Below, in pieces: positions 6,365 through 53,003 of a stretch of DNA of 64,000 nucleotides (position 1 is its first letter; each line of letters starts with the position of its first letter). The notes beneath the pieces were generated by a model, which saw only the letters and a program-made list of their open reading frames with translations, ran no database searches and was not told the origin of the DNA. The position numbers were made by a program, and so were the translations under genes. This stretch comes from Botryllus schlosseri (Eukaryota): the NCBI GenBank assembly GCA_051294905.1, contig CM119372.1, forward strand, positions 744,001 to 808,000, read 5' to 3'.

Positions 6365-7348
6365 TTATTGCACTGAGCTGGGCGAGATGTTGAACATTTT
6401 CGGGTCAAATTCTTGTCCTTTGAACGGCGAGCCTTCCGCGTCCCATCCTTGTTTGAGCATCTCGTGAACTTTGAGCTCGTGACTCTGCGGAAGACCAAGA
6501 CGTTTCTGCTTTTCATCAAACTGAAGCTTGTTGATAACCGCTAGTTCATCAGGAGCCATATCTGCCATCGATCTTTCAGGCTGGATCTTCTTCAAATCAA
6601 TTTCGTCTTCGTTGGTGAGCAATGCTTTGAACCAGAAGTTCACATTTTTGCTGATAGATATCGTTATACACTTTCCTTTCTCCAAAGACCATGTGGTTTC
6701 AGTCCATCTTACTTCATGAGTAAGCTCTCCATCGATAACAACATCCGTTTCCCCGCTTGCATTTACAATGCTGACGTAAATCGATTTTTTTCCGACATCC
6801 ACCTTCACTTGGTCAGTTTTTACAATGGTTTTATCAACTGGAATCACAATATCAAGATCTTCATAGTTTTGGGACCATGAATATTTCTCCCTGACTGCTC
6901 CATTGTAGCTTTCAGGATTGCTCTGAAATGCTTCTTGCGTTTTAGGCATCTCGTTTGTTGATGGTTCAGCAGAGGTCGAGGCGGATGTTTGTGGTTTGGG
7001 ATCGTTATCAGAAGACTCAGCTGGCGCCTTCTCTGCATTGGACTCGGTTGGGGCCGTCTCTGCATTATCTGGTGCTTTAGCTTCGTTTTCTTTCTTACGT
7101 TCCAAAGCAGCGCGTACCATTCTTTCAGTCACTCCTTTGTACTTGATGAAATGAGATTTGATCATGTTTTCCGCCACCCCTTCGGGAAACCCATATCTCG
7201 GATCTTCCTCAGTCTTGACGTGGTAGAAGTCCGTTTTGCGGAAAAGAAAGCCAAACACGACATCTAGAAACTTTGTCACCTCTCCCTCGTGTTGCAGTAT
7301 GCCCAGCAAGGCGGAATCGTACTTTTGGAAGTCAGTCGGAGAAGCCAT
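6365..7348 (-). CDS. NUDCD3: NudC domain-containing protein 3 (intronless, 327 aa)
   Basis: N-terminal NudC motif (YDSALLGILQH...FLDVVFGFLFRKTDFY), p23/CS domain (SYNGAVREKYSWSQNYEDLDI...), and C-terminus KRLGLPQSHELKVHEMLKQGWDAEGSPFKGQEFDP. ATG at 7348. Confidence 0.95.
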   Translation of the reverse strand: MASPTDFQKYDSALLGILQHEGEVTKFLDVVFGFLFRKTDFYHVKTEEDPRYGFPEGVAENMIKSHFIKYKGVTERMVRAALERKKENEAKAPDNAETAPTESNAEKAPAESSDNDPKPQTSASTSAEPSTNEMPKTQEAFQSNPESYNGAVREKYSWSQNYEDLDIVIPVDKTIVKTDQVKVDVGKKSIYVSIVNASGETDVVIDGELTHEVRWTETTWSLEKGKCITISISKNVNFWFKALLTNEDEIDLKKIQPERSMADMAPDELAVINKLQFDEKQKRLGLPQSHELKVHEMLKQGWDAEGSPFKGQEFDPKMFNISPSSVQ

Positions 7349-7597
7349 ACTCGCGCCTGGGCAAGAAACCCTTCGCCACACTCACAGCAAACAGTCGCAA
7401 ACACTTCTGCTTCTGGTTCTGGAAAATTCAATGTGATCAGCAATCCGGGTGTGTCTATTTTGTCAATGTCGCCAATGTCGATAGTGTCGCCAATATCAAA
7501 AATGTCGAATTTACCAGGAAATATTTCATTTATTATACCCAAGTACCATCAATGTCGGTAACTACCTCGACTCTACCAGGAAATATGTCATTATAAT

Positions 7598-13900: not shown

Positions 13901-16900
13901 TCGACCACAGATATTCCAGGGCTATCCATCGGCACGCAGATCAAAGACTTGTTGGTGTGCGGACCGGTATCGTTCGTACACGCCAGCAGGCACATCCAAT
14001 CTGCCTGAAAATGTACGCAGGTTTTACGATGAAATCGTATGCCCAGTCTCTAAACAGTAAATATTACGGTTGTTCGAAAGTAAGTTTTCGTCATATTCTA
14101 TTGGTCAGTTGATGATATTGCTTGGTTACATAAAAAAATACTGCACATCAAATTTGGCTGAATTCCAACCTGTAAAAGTGTAGCTATGAATAAGAGTGGA
14201 AAATTTTAGACTTTTTTTACACAAAAATCACATTTTATAAGTATTATATTGGCTACCCTGTGAAATTGTAACGTTGTATAACAAACGATGGATAAGAAAT
14301 TTGGCTTAATTACGGTAGAAAATTTGGAATTTAAAACCGTAATTCAAAATTTGCTGCCATGGGTCGGAATTGAATCAAATTTCGTGCGCATCGTTTTTTC
14401 ATACAACGTAACAGTTTCACGGCGTTTTTTTTCCAAAGAAACAAAAAGGCCAGTGGAAGTGCGGCAAATTCGATGCGAATCGCTTTTTCCCTCAACTAGC
14501 CCGTAAAATTCGAAAAAAAGTTATTTTTGAACAGCCCTAGTGAACATACGTGATCGCTGTTTGTGATCCACATTTTCTCTCCGTTGATGACCAGGTCGTC
14601 TCCGTCAGCTATGGCTTTGGTTCTGACGCCTGAAATGCACTGTTGGGCAACTAGAAAATCGTCAGCTTTTCCAAATGAGATTCGAATTATAACGAGAGCT
14701 ACAGTTTTTTTTAATCAACTTAGACTAGAATTAGTGAATTTGCAAAAATTTGGAGATTTAGTGCAATTCATATCAAATCAGAGTTCATACTCATTAAGCA
14801 CGAGAATGGCAAATGTCTGTACAGCAATCATGGTTCGTTTCGATGAAGTTCTCCTGTTGCATTTTCAGGAAAAGCAGTGAAATTAGATTGGAATTAAAAT
14901 GAAAGCACAGACAGAAACATTTCACGGATTAGATTAGAATTAGATTACCGGAAAAAGCACTTTCTGTATTTCGAAATCCAAACCTAAAAAGTGACAAGTT
15001 TTGTCTGAAGCGGAAGTAGTAAAGATTCCACGCAGACAAAAGCTACCCGATTGCTTCAAAAATTACAGGCACTTCGTTACTGACCACTCCCTAGCTGTAG
15101 CCACCAAACAGACCAGCAGACAGACAAAACTGACTTGCAACGTCGGATCCAGAGCCGGTCTCGCTCACTCCAAGACAAGAAACGAATTCGCCAGCAATCG
15201 AAGGCGCCAGAAATCTCTCCTTTAGCCCGTGACTGCCAAACCTGAAAGTTTGGTTTCACTTTTTGTTACTATGACTCGAAGACAAAATTGTTGCCCGCAT
15301 ATCAGTGTGTACGTCACCAGATTGGATATCGGCTGAGCCATATCAGATCCGGAGCGACGTTATTGATGAGCATGGCGCCTGTTGTAATGACTCGACTCAA
15401 ATCGGACTAGAGTCGCAATTTTGCGTTGACTCGAGTCAGTTCTTTGACTCGGTTCGAGTTAATTTGTGTATTGACGCAACTTGTACTTGAGTCATTGCGC
15501 ATGACATGACTCGACACATTCTATAATTATGACTCACTCAAGTCTGGTATAATATATCTGTTTCAATAAACATGTCAAGAGTTTGAGGCCTTTGAGGCCC
15601 TTGAGTTTGAGGCCTTCGATATCACCAAATAGTTTCACAGAATTGAGCTGAACCTGCCTTGAACTCGATACTGAAACATAAACACTCGGCTTTGACTCGG
15701 TGGTGAATTGAAAATGACTCAACTAGACTCAAGTCAAGACTATAAGGTGAGATGGACTAGTGTCGCGGAACCATGTGCCTTGGTAACAACCCTGGTTGCA
15801 ACCAGACATGGGGTAATCGCGATTAGTAATCGTAATCGATTACGACGATTACAGCATTTTCGAGTAATCGTAATCGATTACATTCGGAAAAAATCCAAAG
15901 TAATCGTAATCGACTACTTCGCATATCTAATCGATTTCCTTGTGAAAGAGCGATTACTTTTTATTTGTACAATGAATATGACATAACCGAACATTTGTGA
16001 ATAAGGAAGAGATATTATACCAGGTTATTGATAGCGCAAACGGTCGATTTTCAAACGCCACTGCTCATTATTACGTCAGAAGTATTAGCTTTGCTCGTCC
16101 TTGCGTAAGAAGTATCCACACGTAGTAAATATATATTCGATGTACATTGTTGTGTGATTGTAAGAACAGTGCAAGTCATGCTGTATATCAGGTAATCAAT
16201 ACACTCCAGACACCACTACCTCGCAGCAAGATAATAATCACCATACTCTGCCTAGTTTCAAATAGTGACTTATGTATTGATGTTTGGTTATGCTTAGTTA
16301 AACGTAGTTTGACCGTTGCTGCTTGGCGAGCAGTAGGCCTATCTATGTAGTATACGTATGTATTGTACGTACACCGGACAAAGATTTGAAATTTTGTACT
16401 CGTCAAATAAAACATTACGATGGTTAAAATCAACAGCTGCTGATATATATCATAACCGAGCCGTTCTTTGCCGTTTCTCGTAACAGCAGCTTGCAGTATC
16501 TGTATTAAGTGGAAGGTAGAATTTTAAGTTCACTTTATTTTATTCTCATATGACTCTACTTGGAACGGGCCCCAAGCGTTATTTCACAAGTCTTCCCTCG
16601 ACATTTATACCTGTCGCCATAACCATCCGCTTATACACCATGGTAGCGTGGGTTGTAGGTACAATCAGGACCAAAACAGCAATTCGTCCCGCACTCCAAA
16701 CGATGGTATTGGTAGGGTTGTAACCAAGTCACGATGTTCCGAGTCAAAACCAATCTCACTTTTATAGTTTTGACTCGAGTCAAGTCGAGTCATTTTCAAT
16801 TGACCCCCGGGTCAAGTCAGAGTCCAAGTCAGCTAGTATAGGGCCAAGTCCGAGTCATAGTGTTTGACTCGAGTACGAGTCCAAGTCGTTATGTTCACAG

Positions 16901-19900
16901 ATCAGTTTTCAGATCAATTCGGTTCAACCCACTCTTTTCAACTCTGCTCGAATTATATAGAATGGCTCGTATTCATAATATAGTGATTTTCATCAGTTTT
17001 CACAGTTTCCGGCCCTATTTCCAAGTATCAGGACTGATAGACGAAATACAAATAATGTGGTAACTTTACCATTCTTCGAAGTTACATGGAATGTCTGTCT
17101 TGGCCGTTCTGGTCTCAAGTCATATGACTTGGTTCGAGTCATGCAAAATGACTGGAGTACAAGTTGAGTCAATACAAAATTGACTCGAGTCGAGTCAATT
17201 TACGCATTTGAAAAAATGCCTCGAGTCAAGTCTAGTCACCAAAAAATCGCGACTCGAGTCGAGTCATGACTCGAGTCATTACAACCCTGGGTATTGGTGC
17301 CCCACAGGGTGGTCAGTTTTCAAGTTGATGACTGAATTTCGTCAATAATATTGGTAATTGCATTATATTGCTATTCATTCAGATTTACCGGTAGAGCTGG
17401 GGGGCACGTAATTCATAATTATAGCATCTGGTATGTTGCTATAATTAATTTATTGTATGTTGTTAATTCGTGACCTCTCGTCTTTTATATAATCAAAAGA
17501 TACTGTAGTCGCCCAAACGTAGCAGACTAAAAGATAAACTTTCGTGAGACGCACACACAAATTGTCATGTCTTCATTCCTCTGTGAGTTCCCAGGGTGAC
17601 ATTTGTATTGTTGGGGCTCAGATTGGAAGGACCGGACTATTCGTCATGCCCACAGAGCGCGGCTACTGACAATGGACATGGACACATACCCAAAGTTTTG
17701 GCCAAGGTCATTCTTTGGTAGCACACTTTGTGGAGTTGCATGTTGGCCGAAATTGCATACGTCTTTTGGTGTGTCGTGGCAATGATCGCCACCGAAATGC
17801 GTATTCCTATAAATTGGGGAGTTTGGCAGTTACAGACCTGGCAAGAATGCAAATCGTTGGGAGCGACGAATAGTCCTGTACAGAGTTGGGCAATGAGTGC
17901 ATTATGACGTAACAAGCAAATAATGTATGATTTATAAGGAAAGTTGTTATCCAATTAGACCTTTTCATCGCAAGCCTTATATTGTTTTCCAATATCTGTT
18001 CTGAAATTAGTTCTAAGAATCAAAACAAATGTAATCGTGATTACTTTTGAAATGTAATCGTAATCGACTACTTCCTGATTTTGCTGTAATCGTAATCATA
18101 ATCGTGGGATTCACAAGTAATCGTAATCGATTACATTCGTGGAGTAATTACCCCATGTCTGGTTGCAACCACTATCCAGCCAGTGCGAAGGTAAACGGTT
18201 GAAGTTTTCATATAACCAATATAACACTTGAACCTTGTTCGTAAAAGCAGTGCTTCTGTTAATTTTAATTACCCAATTAATGCTCAATCATAATAAAGAC
18301 AACTCAGCTTACTTTTGGTCGAATTGGCAGAAAAATTATTGGTACTACAGTAATTTGCACTGATCGTATAAAATGCACAAGAGGTATAATGAAATCACAA
18401 GGTTTTGACTCGAGTCATTTTCAATTCACCACCAAGTCAGGTCGGGATTCAAAAGTCCAAGTCCGAGTCACAGTCTCAAGAACGTTCATCTTGTAGTTCA
18501 ATCAGATTCAACTCACTCTTCACAACTCTCTTTGCATGATATTGAATGCCTCGCATTCATATAATAGCAATTTTCCTCACACACCTAACCCAGTTACTGG
18601 TACAAACACAAGTACTGATAGACGAAATACCAATAATGTGGTAGCTTACTATTCTTCTCAGTTGCACTGAAATGCATGTTTTGGCCGCCCTAGTTGAGTC
18701 AATACAGAAGTTGCTAAAGTCGAGCGAGTCATTTTCCGCATTTTAGAAGATGTACCGAATGATACAGAGTCAACAAAAAAATCGCAACTCGAGTCATTAC
18801 GATTACAGTTGCACCTTCAGGTTAGTTGAATCGTATTGTGCAGTACTTCGACACCAACCGATTCAACAAATACTAGTGCTACTGTGTAACACCGGGTTAA
18901 CATATAGAACAGTACCATTTTCTGCATGGATCATTGTTCTACCACACTGTAACAACGAACAAAGTACTGTTTATTGTGCGATAACCTAATGATAGGAATT
19001 ATGTATCCGTGTCCAAATTTAGTGGATTTAACTGTATTTACAAATTAATGTGGAACATGGAGCTTCATTTTTTCTATTTTTGATGCACACTTTTTCTGAT
19101 ACGTTCGGAGTCGGGAGTCGATTTTGAAGGAACAGGCTTTCTTGCTCTACTGCATAATTGGCTGTCAACTCACTTTGCCAATGCAGGTGTCGCCATGTCT
19201 GTTTGTATGGTAACCGCCATGGGCACGGCTCCACATTTCACATTTCCAAGTTCTTCAGCTATCGCAATTGCAAAACTGTAGTCCAAGCCAAGGCCTCCGT
19301 ATTCTGTGACCAATATCAGAGTTACTTTGACTCGAATCGGAAAATTTGCGCAAATAAAAACGAGCAGGCATCACCTACAGGCTTGTTCACCCCGAGCAGT
19401 CCGGCGTCCCCCAACGTTTTGAATACTTCATGGATCGGAAAGTCTTTTTGTTCTTCCCAAGCGTCGACGTAAGGGTTTATATCTTTATCAATGATCTGAA
19501 AAATGGGCCTCCCATGAGTCCTCAAGGAGAATTTGTCCTCTTTTCACGAGCAGAATGAATGGTCCTCTGAAGACGCCCTAAATTCCCCATTTTTGCATTT
19601 CGAAACTTTCAACAAGACTTTTAGGCGCGATGTCGGCCATTTTCTACTTCAAGTTTGAACATGGCTTGATAACCAGGGTGGTAACCAAGTTACAAGTCAA
19701 TGTCACTTTTATAGTTTTGACTCGAGTCATTTTCAACTCACCACCGAGTCAAGTCCGAGTCCAAGTCAGCAACCTGAGGGTCGAGTCCGAGTCATTGTGT
19801 TGACTGCTCAGTTTCCAGGTAAAGTCTTGTAAACCCACTTTTTATAATGCTGTTTGGTGATATTGAATGGTTCGCATTTATAATATACTAACTTTCCTCA

Positions 19901-21729: not shown

Positions 21730-22383
21730 TAGGGCTCTTCAAAAATGACTTTTTTTCTCAAATCATACTGGCTACTTCTGTTAGGTTACCTAATTTAAGC
21801 CTACGCACCAAATTTGGTTCAATTCCAACCAGTAGCCGCATTGCTACAGAAGAAAGTTTCTATTTATAATATAAAAATAAATAACAAAATATTTTAAAAT
21901 TTTCTGTTCACCCCATGAAAGTGTTAGGTTCTCTATAGAAACGATATTCACCAAATTTGGTTCAATTCCAAATAGCGAAAGCGGAGTTATTGCCGTTGAA
22001 AAATGTGGATTTGTATAAAATAGTTTTTACGGTGAGCACCACTATAATAAATAATTAAAGAACTGGTCACCGTAAATACTATTTTATTCATAATACAAAT
22101 TTTTCGACGGCAATAACTCCGCTGCTACTGGTTGAAATTGAACCAAATTTGGTGAACATCGCTTCTATAGACAACCTAACACTTTCATGGGGTGAACAGA
22201 AAATTTTCAAATTTCTTGTTATTTATTTTTATATAATAAATAGTAGCTTTCTTCTCCTGTAGCAATGCGGCTACTGGTTGGAATTGAACCAAATTTGGTG
22301 TGTAGGCTTAAATTAGGTAACCTAACAATTTTATCATGTAGCCAGTACGATTTGAGAAAAAAAGTCATTTTTGAAGAGCCCTA
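21730..22383. mobile_element. Fold-back (long palindromic) MITE
   Basis: TAGGGCTCTTCAAAAATGAC...GTCATTTTTGAAGAGCCCTA with arms complementary over ~300 bp and perfect TSD GTGAGTAT. A related degenerate element follows at ~22400-22890. Confidence 0.9.
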
Positions 22384-22901: not shown

Positions 22902-24014
22902 CTATTCCTCACTAATTCGTTTACGAATGGAGCGCGACTTGACCGATTTCTTTTTGAAAGTCGTAGAACCCCCCTCCCCATCCAGAGACGTCACAATTTT
23001 TTCGTTAAATTTACGCGGTTTGTCATCAACGGGTTGTTCTAGAGTAGTTCTGTCAACGAGTCCCTCTTTTTCAGAGTCCTCAGATTTAGCTGGCAATTGC
23101 CAGTCCACCCGTTTCTTTACTTCAATGTTTTGAACCACGTTCCAAGTTCCGTATGGATTATGCCTCGGCTTTTTTGCCGGTAATTCATCGGAGGAATCAT
23201 TTTCTTTTTTCACTACAGGGGTAAAAACTGGTTTTGATTCGTAATCATCCGGTTTTTCCCACTGAGACTTCCCAGTTTCGCTGTTCCAATAATACGTGTG
23301 GCCTTCGGGAGAGACTTCTTCTGTCCAAGTTGATTTCGCAGGTGTTTCAGATGATTTAGATTGACTGCCTTCAACAATAACAGCTCCATCTGGCTTATCC
23401 CAACTCGTCTCCCCATTCTCGGTATTATAATAATAAGTCTTGCCTTCTGGAGATACTTGTTTCATCCAAGTAGCCTTTTTTGATTCCACAGGTTTTTGAG
23501 GTTCGGCCTTTTTTTTCTTCGATACAAAATCGGGAGGCTTATCCCAACGTGACTCTCCACTTTCGGAGTTCCAATAATACTCTCGACCTTCGGGAGACAC
23601 TTGTTTGACCCAAGGCGAATTTTTGATAATTTTAGACTCCCGGAAGTCCTCCTTATTGTGTATTTTCACTTTTTTCTTACCCCCTTCTTGAAAATGCAGT
23701 TCGTGGATGCCTTTGCTCGGCCGAGAAGCCCCCAAGTGCGGCATTTCCGAATCGATGACTAATCCTTGCTCCGCTAAATCCTTCTGGTACGCTTTCAACG
23801 CGGCGTCTTCCATTTGACGTAGATACACGCCGGCTTGTTGCTGGTTTTTGAACTGTTCTGCGCTGCGTTTACGCAAACTAGACAAGTGTTTCTCTTTCTT
23901 GTCAATATGGCTTTTGCCGCGTTCGTGAAATTCAATGCTAGCCTTATTATCGGCTAGCCAACATTTGCATATTTCGCAAAAATAACGCGGGTTTGATTTC
24001 CAGTACGACGCCAT
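22902..24014 (-). CDS. WBP4: WW domain-binding protein 4 / FBP21 (intronless, 370 aa)
   Basis: N-terminal matrin/U1-type zinc finger MASYWKSNPRYFCEICKCWLADNKASIEFHERGKSH, three WW domains, NPYGTW motif and a basic C-terminus. Confidence 0.93.
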   Translation of the reverse strand: MASYWKSNPRYFCEICKCWLADNKASIEFHERGKSHIDKKEKHLSSLRKRSAEQFKNQQQAGVYLRQMEDAALKAYQKDLAEQGLVIDSEMPHLGASRPSKGIHELHFQEGGKKKVKIHNKEDFRESKIIKNSPWVKQVSPEGREYYWNSESGESRWDKPPDFVSKKKKAEPQKPVESKKATWMKQVSPEGKTYYYNTENGETSWDKPDGAVIVEGSQSKSSETPAKSTWTEEVSPEGHTYYWNSETGKSQWEKPDDYESKPVFTPVVKKENDSSDELPAKKPRHNPYGTWNVVQNIEVKKRVDWQLPAKSEDSEKEGLVDRTTLEQPVDDKPRKFNEKIVTSLDGEGGSTTFKKKSVKSRSIRKRISEE

Positions 24015-24814
24015 TATGAAATGCAATATTCAGTAAGTCACTTGAAGCTTAGAGCAAAGGTACTAGCCAAAAGTCTGCAAAAACAAAACAATTGATAAAA
24101 TAACAGTTTTGTTCTATTGGCTGAAATAATGCAATCAACAGTAACAATTTCAATGGCAGTGGATGACTATCGGCTAGTCTTATAGCCCAACTGTAACAGT
24201 TGAGGCTAACAATTATCAACACATGCATAAAAAAAGGGTCTTTGACAGAATTTCAAACGGATATGATTGCAAAACATAGCATATTGAGGAAATTCTATAA
24301 GTTGGAGTTTTGACAATGGCGAAGCATTGTATTTGTTAAATCAAAAAATAAGTTATCGGGAATATTACTTTCGAGATTATAGGTTACCTGTTACATATCA
24401 TTCCAATTTTTTTTCAATACTGGTATTACAGATTTTTTATTGAAATCAAATTCCGCAGAGCACAGTTGTTTGAGGTCGTTTTTCAAGTTCAAATCATGGT
24501 AACTACAAAACACTGCATTTTGCTAAAGCAAGACGGAGGCCAACTTGTCTAGAAATGGATATCCGAGATTCTAACTTCAATTTTGATCAAATATTTTTTT
24601 AATATTACGGATATCTTAATGAAATAAGTCGGAGTTTTGACAGCTGCGAAACACTGTATTATGTTGCATCAAGATAAAACTTGCCAGGAAATTTACTCCC
24701 GGAATTCTATCTATTGCATTTTGTTCCAATCATTCTAATAGCGGTATTACGGATTTTTAATCGAAACTAAATTCAAAATATCAACTTGATAAGTTTAAAC
24801 ATCTGCAGAGAGCA

Positions 24815-25501
24815 TTATTTTTGACCGTTAGCGAGTTCCTGCGAATTTTCTGCTCCGGAATTTTCACCATTCTTTTTGTCAGCATCAGCATCAATCTTCA
24901 AATTTTCTAGATTATCAGCGGTAGTTTCCACTTCAGACTTATTGGATTTTTTATCATCTTCAACGTCATCTTCATCGGTAGTTGGTTGTTGCTTTGGAAG
25001 ACTTTTGTTGATTTCAATAGCTTCGTAAAATTGGTCCTTAAATTTACCTGCATTTTCTGAATTCAAAAACTTGATGGCAAGCAGTTCTGACTTCATTTCT
25101 TCATCAGAAAACTCTGCGGCTACGCTCCAAACCCACGCCCGATCGCTGCCGCAGTTTGGTGTCAATTTCATGTATTCTTCGATAAAATGATTGGCACACA
25201 CCTTCAGAGTTTTGTCGCGTCGCATCAGCAACCTCACCTTTTTCGTGATTTTATGTTGTAAGAACCTCACGTTGCCGGTACCGCGTTCTTTCCATTCCGC
25301 CGGGTCACATTCTGACGCCCAGCGATATAATTTTGCGCGCATTTGGAACAGGACATCCTCCTCTTCTTCGAGGGTTTTGGTTTCTTGCAAAGGCAAGCTT
25401 ACGATTGGTTCAAAATGGGGCTCGTGGCTTTCCGCGACAGTAGGAGACGCGGTTTCTATTTTACCCTCACAAGGGACAGTCTCTTCCTTACTTTCAGCCA
25501 T
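24815..25501 (-). CDS. RANBP1: Ran-specific GTPase-activating protein / Ran-binding protein 1 (intronless CDS, 228 aa)
   Basis: RanBD1 domain: [66 protein letters not shown]-like LENLKI. Confidence 0.95.
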
Positions 25502-25689
25502 GCTAAGTCAATAATATTAACCAATCTGGAAGAATCACAGAGCTATTATACAGAACATGTAAGAAGACAATGACTATTCATTCGGAACCGTAGGAATAAT
25601 TTTTTCAGGTTATTCATCCGGATCGTGACGTAATTATCCAGAATCAGAGATAGAGAGAGAAAGATTTATTGATTTGTACTCCTGCAAAC

Positions 25690-34580: not shown

Positions 34581-36171
34581 CAGGGCTTTGGAGCCGGAGC
34601 CGGAGCCCGGAGCCGGAGCCCCGGAGCCGTGCATTTTTACCGGAGCTGGAGCCGGAGCCGGAGCTCCACATAAAATTCATCCAGAGCCGGAGCTGGAGCT
34701 AGTTATTTGAGGGGGAGCTCCGGCTCCGACGTATTTCATAAGATGCTATCATACGGCATAGTTTAATTCGTTATAAGCATGGCGCAATTTACATGGTGCA
34801 GTGTTTAATTCGAGTATTCGATTCGTTTAAACGGGAAAATATTATATTCCGATAAACTAGATCGACACCGTATGGACTGGTAACGAGTGCACCAATATCG
34901 AAAGTCAAACCATTGGCCATTTGGTACAAATCGAATTTCTATTGATCAGGTCGTGATGTCCGCCCATATTGCTCTTACTATACAGTTACAGTTGAATACT
35001 AATCGCTTATTTAAAGATTGAATTGAGCTGTATGGCTTAATGTTAACGAGTACAGTGCCAGTGTTAAAACGCAGCATCAAAATTTTGATACTGTGCTCAG
35101 CAATGAGTTGTAGTAAAGTGCGTTCTAGTACAACTATGAAGTTATCGACAATTGACAAGTATTTATCATGACGTCACAAGCCGACACGGCAGCACCTATG
35201 TCTTCGTTGCTGCATCCGATGTTACTGACAGTTGACAGACTTTAGATTACTATAGATAACTAACCTACGGGTAAATTAGTAATCTATATAGACCAGGTTG
35301 GCCAACCTTTTCGGCTAAAAGGCCAAATGAAATTGACGAACGAATGCGCTGCCCACTAGCCGCGCCAGGCGCGTAAAAATTTCAAAGTTGATATCATTAT
35401 TACTCGGGTATATTGCGGGTCGACTGTATAACGCCCGCTGGGCTTAGTTTGCAAGGACAGGACTATTCGGCATCTGGACATATCGATATCGAAGATTTCC
35501 TTTAAAATACGACAATTAATTTGTGCCTACATTTCATCGTCGACGATCTTTCTGCGAGCGCAAACGCGAAAAGGCTTTCTCTCGTAATTGCGAATATAGT
35601 TAAACCCAATCGGCTAAATCAGGCGTTTTTTCATTTTCAGGAGTGGGTATGCTAAAAAGCAAGAAAGCGTGTGACAATTAAACCCGCGAATCGCAAAAAA
35701 ATTACTACTCTTTTAGTTTATTGTAATGTACGACGATTTACTAAAAATGTGATTGCGGACCATTGATCTGCCAATGCGTCGGAACTGATATTTTAGTCAT
35801 CAACATCCCAAGTGTCGCGGCCAGACTAATCATATTTTTGGTTCGCCTTGCAAGTTCACAATATGAGCATATGATCTGAGCAATTCAATTTCGATAATAT
35901 AACAGCATTTCGATGATATAATGGGAAATTAGCTCGCGGGCTACTCAAAACCGTCTCGCGGCCCACATATAGCCCGCAGGCCGCGGGTTGCCCACCCCTG
36001 ATATAGACAGACACCTTCGATAGTTTTCAGAGCCGGAGCCGGAGCCGGAGCTGGAGCCGGAGCTGTGGAAATAATGCGGCTCCGGAGCTGGAGCGGAGCT
36101 AGTGTATGATAAAAGAAAGCTCCGGAGCCGGAGCTGGAGCAATGCAAATTTACGGCTGCTCCGAAGCCCTG
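34581..36171. mobile_element. Non-autonomous hAT element with GGAGC(C/T) subterminal arrays
   Basis: TIR CAGGGCTT(T/C)GGAGC with perfect TSD CTGGCAGC (34573-34580, 36172-36179). Confidence 0.92.
35294..36000. mobile_element. hAT-Charlie-like MITE nested in the GGAGCC element
   Basis: Termini CAGGTTGGCCAACC / GGTTGCCCACCCCTG with perfect TSD ATATAGAC. Confidence 0.88.
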
Positions 36172-52426: not shown

Positions 52427-53003
52427 GCCGGTCACCTCTTAAATCGTCAGGTTGCAGTAGAAAACCTTGCTCACCAAATTTCACTCGATTCCAACCAGTA
52501 AAGGCCTCCGCAGATCCAATTAAAATTTTTAATTTATTACGGAAAATTGAAAAAAAATTTTCCATATTTTTCTGCCAACCCCATGAAATTGTTGAGCTAT
52601 CTTCAAAGACGTTGCAAAACAAATTTGAGTCAATTCCGACCAGTAGAAGCGGAGTTATGTGAGTTTTTCGATGATAATCCTGGGATTATCCTTGATCGGT
52701 GGGTAATCCGCGATTTATCAACGAAAAACTCACATAACTCCGCTTCTACTGGTCGGAATTAACTCAAATTTGTTTTGCAACGTCTTTGAAGACAGCTCAA
52801 CAATTTCATGGGGTTGGCAGGAAAATTTGGAAATTTTTTTTTCAATTTTCCGTAATAAATTAAAAATTTTAATTGGATCTGCGGAGGCCTTTACTGGTTG
52901 GAATCGAGTGAAATTTGGTGAGCAAGGTTTTCTACTGTAACCTGACGATTTAAGAGGTGACCGGCTTGAATCGGGAAAAGAAAGTTATTTTTGAACAGCC
53001 CTA
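52427..53003. mobile_element. Fold-back MITE with near-perfect ~250-bp arms
   Basis: 52427-52676 is the reverse complement of ~52714-52964 with few mismatches. Right end is ...TTATTTTTGAACAGCCCTA; the left terminus is missing. A degenerate relative lies at ~14068-14539. Confidence 0.85.

What the first reader, a model, noticed from the sequence alone, without database searches (positions are those of the whole stretch)
15803..18161. 'Pack-hAT': a non-autonomous hAT transposon carrying an intron-containing gene fragment
Seen: perfect 15-bp TIRs, 8-bp flanking repeat GTTGCAAC and GTAATC subterminal arrays enclose no recognisable transposase but four minus-strand exons. These are joined by 85/131/57-nt GT-AG introns in matching phases and end in TAG plus AATAAA; the frame is restored exactly when the nested MITE and one TSD copy are removed. 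Known: DNA-level gene capture is well documented for plant Pack-MULE/CACTA/Helitrons and much less so for animal hATs. Inference: the retained introns point to DNA-level capture (gap repair), so this family may shuttle host exons around the genome. It sits sense-oriented in an ACAD intron, so its acceptors and poly(A) signal could divert ACAD transcripts.
Basis: partly seen in the sequence, partly recalled or inferred. Interest (0 to 1): 0.8.

Follow-up and report, generated by a model that had tools for sequence, protein, structure and literature searches.

The report
Common hAT transposon, no captured gene
This is a real cut-and-paste jumping element whose whole interior recurs many times in the genome and which is spliced away with the host gene's intron, but the four 'captured exons' inside it are likely a chance reading of non-coding filler, so it is ordinary.

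Summary
The transposon is real; the captured gene is not supported. Confirmed: 15-bp TIRs, an 8-bp TSD fitting nTnnnnAn, GTAATC arrays, a nested 577-bp MITE with its own TSD, and a position inside a 3,932-nt ACAD intron. In two DNA runs the whole interior, not only the ends, is covered hundreds to thousands of times deeper than unique flanks. MITE-less copies and copies with other flanks exist, so this is a multicopy ~1.77-kb non-autonomous hAT family. The four-exon model keeps phase but holds three in-frame stops and is no longer than chance spliced models. It scores as non-coding by codon use, has no homologue in Pfam or protein searches, and is interrupted by frameshifting indels in other copies. 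No listed RNA joint matches its introns (15 of 55 joints shown), and RNA splices the ACAD intron out whole. No genome was available, so neither a parental locus nor an empty site could be sought; a decayed orphan-gene capture stays possible (about 12%). hATs are the commonest carriers among animal Pack-TIRs (208 of 370, PMC8277862).

The parts
15795..15802 (.). left copy of 8-bp target-site duplication GTTGCAAC (fits nTnnnnAn)
   Evidence: pattern from PMC10368747 passage
15803..15817 (+). left terminal inverted repeat
15813..15960 (.). left subterminal GTAATC/GATTAC array (likely transposase BED-domain sites; inferred)
   Evidence: 11 motifs
15961..16704 (.). interior, left part; multicopy; holds the 3' part of the proposed last exon, TAG 16558-16556 and AATAAA 16544
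   Evidence: X1 summed depth 55,099-185,972 per bin; no Pfam hit
16705..16712 (.). left TSD copy GGTATTGG of nested MITE
16713..17289 (.). nested GACTCGAG-type MITE, 577 bp, 8-bp TSD, many relatives in the window
   Evidence: loose ends at 16714 and 17289
17290..17297 (.). right TSD copy GGTATTGG of nested MITE
17298..18030 (.). interior, right part; multicopy; holds the proposed exons 1-3 and the three proposed introns
   Evidence: X2 depth in 30 of 30 bins of 17295-18005, 879-110,114
17631..17879 (.). inner inverted repeat (22-nt arms, 82%) covering most of proposed exon 2; possibly an old nested element
   Evidence: I13; fold z -2.33, 2 of 200 shuffles as good
18025..18146 (.). right subterminal GTAATC array
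18147..18161 (-). right terminal inverted repeat
18162..18169 (.). right copy of target-site duplication
15242..19173 (-). host ACAD intron (3,932 nt, GT-AG) that holds the element and is spliced out whole
   Evidence: joint 15239/19172 in X15 contig (depth 84.8) and 8 reads of X23; splice sites

Best explanation
This is a copy of a multicopy ~1.77-kb non-autonomous TIR element with hAT-type ends and a likely non-coding interior, likely moved by a hAT transposase supplied in trans, later hit by a second MITE, and spliced out with the ACAD intron. Shown: ends, TSD, nested MITE, deep coverage of the whole interior, other flanks, MITE-less copies, whole-intron splicing. Inferred: an Ac-type transposase binds the GTAATC arrays through its BED domain, cuts at the TIRs and inserts at nTnnnnAn sites, making the 8-bp duplication; copy number grows by excision from replicated DNA and gap repair; the interior is passenger DNA (filler and old repeat pieces) that drifts neutrally. 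The four exons are a reading fitted after the fact to GC-richer patches.
For: Interior bins outside the nested MITE: X1 summed depth 34,677-310,338 against 0-160 in bins 18744-19650, with unique contigs at 5.9-14.8; X2 879-110,114 in 30 of 30 bins, 3,531 contigs laid. Summed depth is no copy number, but 45-76 distinct X1 contigs share single interior differences at 16590, 17305, 17589, 17881. MITE-less form: X1 joint 16689 to 17331 with 29 letters between, depth 60.4; matching loose ends in X16 and X23. Another copy's flank ends in GTACATAG (39 reads of X23), again nTnnnnAn, so GTTGCAAC is a TSD and not TIR. Three in-frame stops. Best stop-free three-intron model is 479 nt against 365-673 in 12 shuffles and 527 on the other strand. 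Codon score -0.133, below the 5th percentile of all 5 host controls mutated by 15% (-0.038 to 0.06); 26% of 1,614 non-coding frames score as high. Other copies differ by indels of 7, about 5, 6 and 1 nt inside proposed exons 2 and 3. None of 15 shown joints (of 55) matches a proposed intron; 0 of 66 X23 reads on 17295-18005 are 99% alike or more.
Against: Proposed exons 2-4 are GC-richer (46-50%) than proposed introns (26-35%), though like swings occur in the non-exon 3' part and exon 1 is 33%. Three stops in 194 codons against 9.8 expected (P 0.012 before allowing for the choice of frame and splice sites). Other copies show a stronger donor at the 57-nt intron (loose end before 17401), and some indels between copies are multiples of three (27 nt in total across the MITE site, 6 nt at 17672). 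Homology searches are weak for this lineage: a conserved window gene (RanBP1) finds named relatives at only about 36-70% identity. The synonymous-only codon test could not tell controls from non-coding DNA. 40 of 55 and 680 of 695 joints were not shown; only about 6% of X23 was read.
Confidence: 0.72

Rival explanations
1. The interior is an old DNA-level capture of part of a lineage-specific host gene, introns included, that was already decaying when the family amplified (a multicopy Pack-hAT).
For: GC contrast between proposed exons and introns; phases match in this copy; stronger donor at the 57-nt intron in other copies; TAG followed by AATAAA; hAT capture is common in animals; orphan genes would escape the searches.
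Against: Three stops; the TAA at 17832-17830 is not among the 33 of 39 common X2 differences shown, and by their listed kinds only one hidden T>A or both hidden T>C could fall there. Frameshifting indels in other copies, no homologue, non-coding codon score, no spliced joint at 82% likeness among those shown. Two of three donors (GTCTAA, GTGTGT) depart from the GTRAGT consensus (recalled; the ACAD donors are GTGAGT and GTGATG).
Confidence: 0.12
2. The interior is a deletion derivative of an autonomous partner's own intron-containing gene (transposase or accessory ORF), decayed past recognition.
For: Non-autonomous hATs commonly arise by internal deletion, and hAT transposase genes can have introns (BuT2, five exons; PMC3942097 passages). 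It would explain any exon-like texture without host capture.
Against: 0 of 12 read-through frames hit a transposase, BED or dimerisation domain, although this copy differs from the family's common letters at only 39 of 711 places.
Confidence: 0.14
3. The two ends are independent short MITEs around a resident nested gene, and the palindromic GTTGCAAC is part of their TIR.
For: GTTGCAAC is palindromic; three other palindromic 8-mers in the window mimic TSDs inside long inverted repeats.
Against: The interior is as multicopy as the ends; other copies run from the interior into the right subterminal array (loose ends at 18002 and 18031); another copy has a different 8-bp flank.
Confidence: 0.02

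Closest known systems
Non-autonomous hAT elements / hAT MITEs (Ds-like; BuT2-derived MITEs, PMC3942097 passages; Hermes end architecture, PMC10368747 passages)
   Same: Short TIRs (10-25 bp), 8-bp TSD, short subterminal repeats near both tips, no transposase, many copies; target fits the Hermes pattern nTnnnnAn.
   Different: Cognate transposase not identified; about 1.77 kb, longer than most MITEs; carries a second nested MITE.
Animal Pack-TIRs, including multicopy Pack-hAT-N8_XT of Xenopus tropicalis and Ssk-FB4 of Drosophila (Tan et al. 2021, PMC8277862; abstract and sections 7, 9, 10, 14 read)
   Same: TIR element with 100-5,000 bp of non-transposase interior; hAT superfamily; lies in a host gene's intron.
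   Different: Pack-TIRs are defined by a unique TE-free parental locus at 90% identity or more; none is shown here. Their cargo is short (median 224 bp) and mostly single-copy. Ssk-FB4 is spliced and expressed, whereas no splicing is seen here.

Membership tests
non-autonomous hAT element | short TIRs of 10-25 bp | tested here: met
   15 bp; range from PMC3942097 passage
non-autonomous hAT element | 8-bp TSD that differs between copies | tested here: met
   GTTGCAAC both sides; different flank in another copy; empty site not seen
non-autonomous hAT element | short subterminal repeats at both ends | tested here: met
   11 and 9 motifs at the ends, 1 between
non-autonomous hAT element | no intact transposase, multiple copies | tested here: met
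non-autonomous hAT element | autonomous partner with the same ends encodes a hAT transposase | not testable with these tools
   no genome held
hAT, Ac group | target pattern nTnnnnAn | tested here: inconclusive
   fits at this site and at the X23 flank; a third junction (X15, 17290/18161) does not fit but abuts another MITE; too few sites
hAT, Ac group | transposase falls in the Ac clade | not testable with these tools
   no transposase in the element
Pack-TIR (Tan et al. 2021) | 100-5,000 bp interior between TIRs of one element | tested here: met
Pack-TIR (Tan et al. 2021) | unique TE-free parental locus at 90% identity or more | not testable with these tools
   no genome; contigs too short to span the interior
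Pack-TIR with gene cargo | interior derives from exons of a gene (homology, open frame or splicing) | tested here: not met
   searches are weak for orphan genes
Pack-TIR with gene cargo | chimeric transcript with the host gene | tested here: not met
   ACAD intron spliced whole; no listed joint into the element; shallow depth, 15 of 695 joints shown

The most novel reading that the evidence does not exclude
An ancient hAT captured several exons and introns of a lineage-specific gene at the DNA level and then spread them to hundreds of sites, a high-copy multi-exon Pack-hAT that sows ready-made acceptors and poly(A) signals into host introns.
Probability: 0.12. Interest if true: 0.5.

Novelty: new member of a known kind. 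Interest (0 to 1): 0.12.

Why it matters
As read here it matters little: one more non-autonomous hAT family in a repeat-rich invertebrate genome, useful for repeat annotation and as a warning that GT-AG models fitted by eye to 1.5 kb of repeat DNA arise by chance. [quoted passage not shown]

Tried and rejected
Pfam on 7 interior ORFs among 18 proteins: 0 of 7 hit; on two read-through exon peptides: 0 of 2; on 12 six-frame read-throughs: 1 hit at E 0.23, below cutoff. phmmer over 1.84 billion representatives with the 51-residue last-exon piece: 3 hits, all rejected as summed weak matches to repetitive proteins (best pairwise 22 bits, 7 of 22 identical). Word-seeded searches of longer proteins: none (weak evidence by the tool's own note). 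ESM Atlas on a 61-residue ORF: no usable hit; the last-exon piece was not searched there. Rfam: 1 match at E 0.14, below gathering. TIR scans: 1 metagenome contig, 67% GC, TIR-only match, taken as chance; 0 viral contigs. Within-window BLAST: no second copy of the interior, only nested-MITE relatives and one 34-nt match at 35440. The look-up of sequencing runs listed no holder on record as RNA; not used as evidence. One search had one control exon in the wrong frame; superseded. The synonymous-only codon test was uninformative. An empty site was not seen among listed joints (15 of 695 shown), which proves nothing. Earlier-finding look-ups by sequence and near place were empty. PMC7540406 (passages) was not used, as the species is not established here.
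Full report
Structure. The element runs 15803-18161 with 15-bp TIRs and GTTGCAAC on both sides. No 10-bp inverted pair with an 8-bp flanking repeat arose in 10 shuffles of the window. GTAATC/GATTAC motifs cluster at the tips (11 and 9, against 1 in between). A 577-bp GACTCGAG-type MITE sits at 16713-17289 with its own duplication GGTATTGG and has many relatives in the window. Without it and one TSD copy the element is 1,774 bp. The host gene is a minus-strand acyl-CoA dehydrogenase; its 3,932-nt intron 19173-15242 has GTGAGT and TTTCAG ends. The organism is an animal by its genes; earlier notes of this scan call it a sea squirt, which I did not test.

TSD or longer TIR. Other copies settle it. 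In RNA run X23, 39 reads carry the left TIR behind a different flank ending in GTACATAG, and an X15 contig joins the TIR end at 18161 to another MITE end. GTTGCAAC and GTACATAG both fit nTnnnnAn, the Hermes target pattern (PMC10368747, passage). In X1, depth falls from 69,592 at 18149 to 12.7 at 18181. Nearly all X1 depth differs from this copy at 18149, so the family TIR is 14 of 15. An X6 contig (another study) spans 18112-18428, 50 letters inside the element, with flank differences from the window, so the insertion is probably shared by another haplotype. No empty site was among the 15 of 695 joints shown.

The interior is a multicopy repeat. In DNA run X1, interior bins outside the nested MITE have summed depths of 34,677-310,338, against 0-160 in the bins from 18744 to 19650. 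In X2, all 30 bins of 17295-18005 are covered at 879-110,114 by 3,531 contigs. The tool warns that summed depth is no copy number, so I claim only dozens at least and likely hundreds or more: 45-76 distinct X1 contigs share single interior differences. A MITE-less form exists (joint 16689 to 17331, depth 60.4; same loose ends in X16 and X23), and other copies run from the interior into the right array. This copy differs from common X2 letters at 39 of 711 places. The unit that moved is therefore the whole ~1.77-kb element, and the rival of two MITEs around a resident gene fails.

The exon model. The joined frame has 194 codons and three stops before the TAG. Three against 9.8 expected looks low (P 0.012), but the frame and sites were chosen after the fact: a search over all three-intron models gave a best stop-free length of 479 nt, against 365-673 in 12 shuffles and 527 on the opposite strand. 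Restoration on removing a MITE and one TSD follows for any insertion. Copies drift neutrally, so the useful question is whether other copies lack the stops. Of 39 common X2 differences 33 were shown, none in the two stops covered; by the listed kinds, the first stop could be lost only through one hidden T>A or both hidden T>C. The third stop lay outside that call. Other copies carry 7 extra letters behind 17823, about 5 extra near 17780, a 6-letter loss at 17672 (41% of X2 depth) and a 1-letter loss at 17399 (46%), so the frame inside proposed exons 2 and 3 is not stable across the family; the net phase in the family consensus could not be fixed. Most of proposed exon 2 lies within an inner inverted repeat (17631-17879).

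Coding signal and homology. With codon frequencies from five window genes, the model scores -0.133, below the 5th percentile of all 5 controls mutated by 15%, and 26% of 1,614 GC-matched non-coding frames score as high. The training set is small and rich in charged residues, and the synonymous-only version could not separate controls from background, so this is modest evidence. No homologue was found in Pfam, among 1.84 billion representatives (3 hits, all repeat artefacts), by word search or in the Atlas. These blanks are weak for orphan genes: even RanBP1 from this window finds named relatives at only about 36-70% identity. For a gene relic: exons 2-4 are 46-50% GC and introns 26-35%, though the non-exon 3' part swings as widely; other copies have a stronger donor at the 57-nt intron; TAG and AATAAA are present.

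RNA. The ACAD intron is spliced out whole in an X15 contig (depth 84.8) and in 8 reads of X23. On 17295-18005 at 82% likeness, none of the 15 joints shown (of 55) matches a proposed intron or has CT..AC ends, and none has X23 reads. X23 laid 66 reads, none 99% alike or more, so they come from other copies. About 6% of X23 was read, and X15 and X16 are RNA by guess, so minor diversion of ACAD transcripts is not excluded.

Mechanism. Shown: ends, duplication, nesting, multiplicity, clean host splicing. Inferred from hAT biology (PMC10368747 and PMC3942097, passages): a transposase in trans binds the subterminal arrays by its BED domain, excises the element and inserts it with an 8-bp stagger. 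The interior needs no function. The second MITE came later, as MITE-less copies show.

Comparison and novelty. It meets the tested marks of a non-autonomous hAT. It is not filed as a Pack-TIR: the defining parental locus could not be sought, and the gene-derived test was not met. In Tan et al. 2021 (PMC8277862; abstract and sections 7, 9, 10, 14 read; supplements not opened) hAT accounts for 208 of 370 animal Pack-TIRs, 13.4% of cases hold exonic sequence and only 4 are multicopy. Capture by an animal hAT is thus known, while a high-copy multi-exon case would be uncommon. Paper searches listed no description of this family; I saw listings only for papers not named above. Verdict: new member of a known kind, interest 0.12.

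Noticed in passing
window 15381-15802: The element's left TSD copy directly abuts the end of an older GACTCGAG-type MITE (ends 15794); an X15 contig shows the same two families end to end at another locus. Possibly reuse of hAT target sites.
   Followed up: partly
window 18149: This copy's perfect TIR is atypical: over 99% of X1 depth has another letter there, so a private change made the TIRs match.
   Followed up: partly
window 17631-17879 and 35440-35473: Inner inverted repeat with a core motif that recurs once at 35460; may be an old nested element.
   Followed up: partly
window 21730-22383: Another TIR element with an 8-bp TSD GTGAGTAT (fits nTnnnnAn) and long inverted arms.
   Followed up: no
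window 6365-7381, 22902-24029, 24815-25507 (minus strand): Three single-ORF, apparently intronless housekeeping genes: NudC-like, WBP4-like (U1 zinc finger plus WW) and RanBP1 (gene names partly recalled).
   Followed up: partly
window 52427-52965: Near-perfect 265-nt fold-back (95%, 9-nt spacer) of a MITE family with several copies in the window.
   Followed up: no
window 15806, run X23: 39 RNA reads carry this family's left end behind one unique flank: a copy elsewhere lies in an expressed transcript.
   Followed up: no
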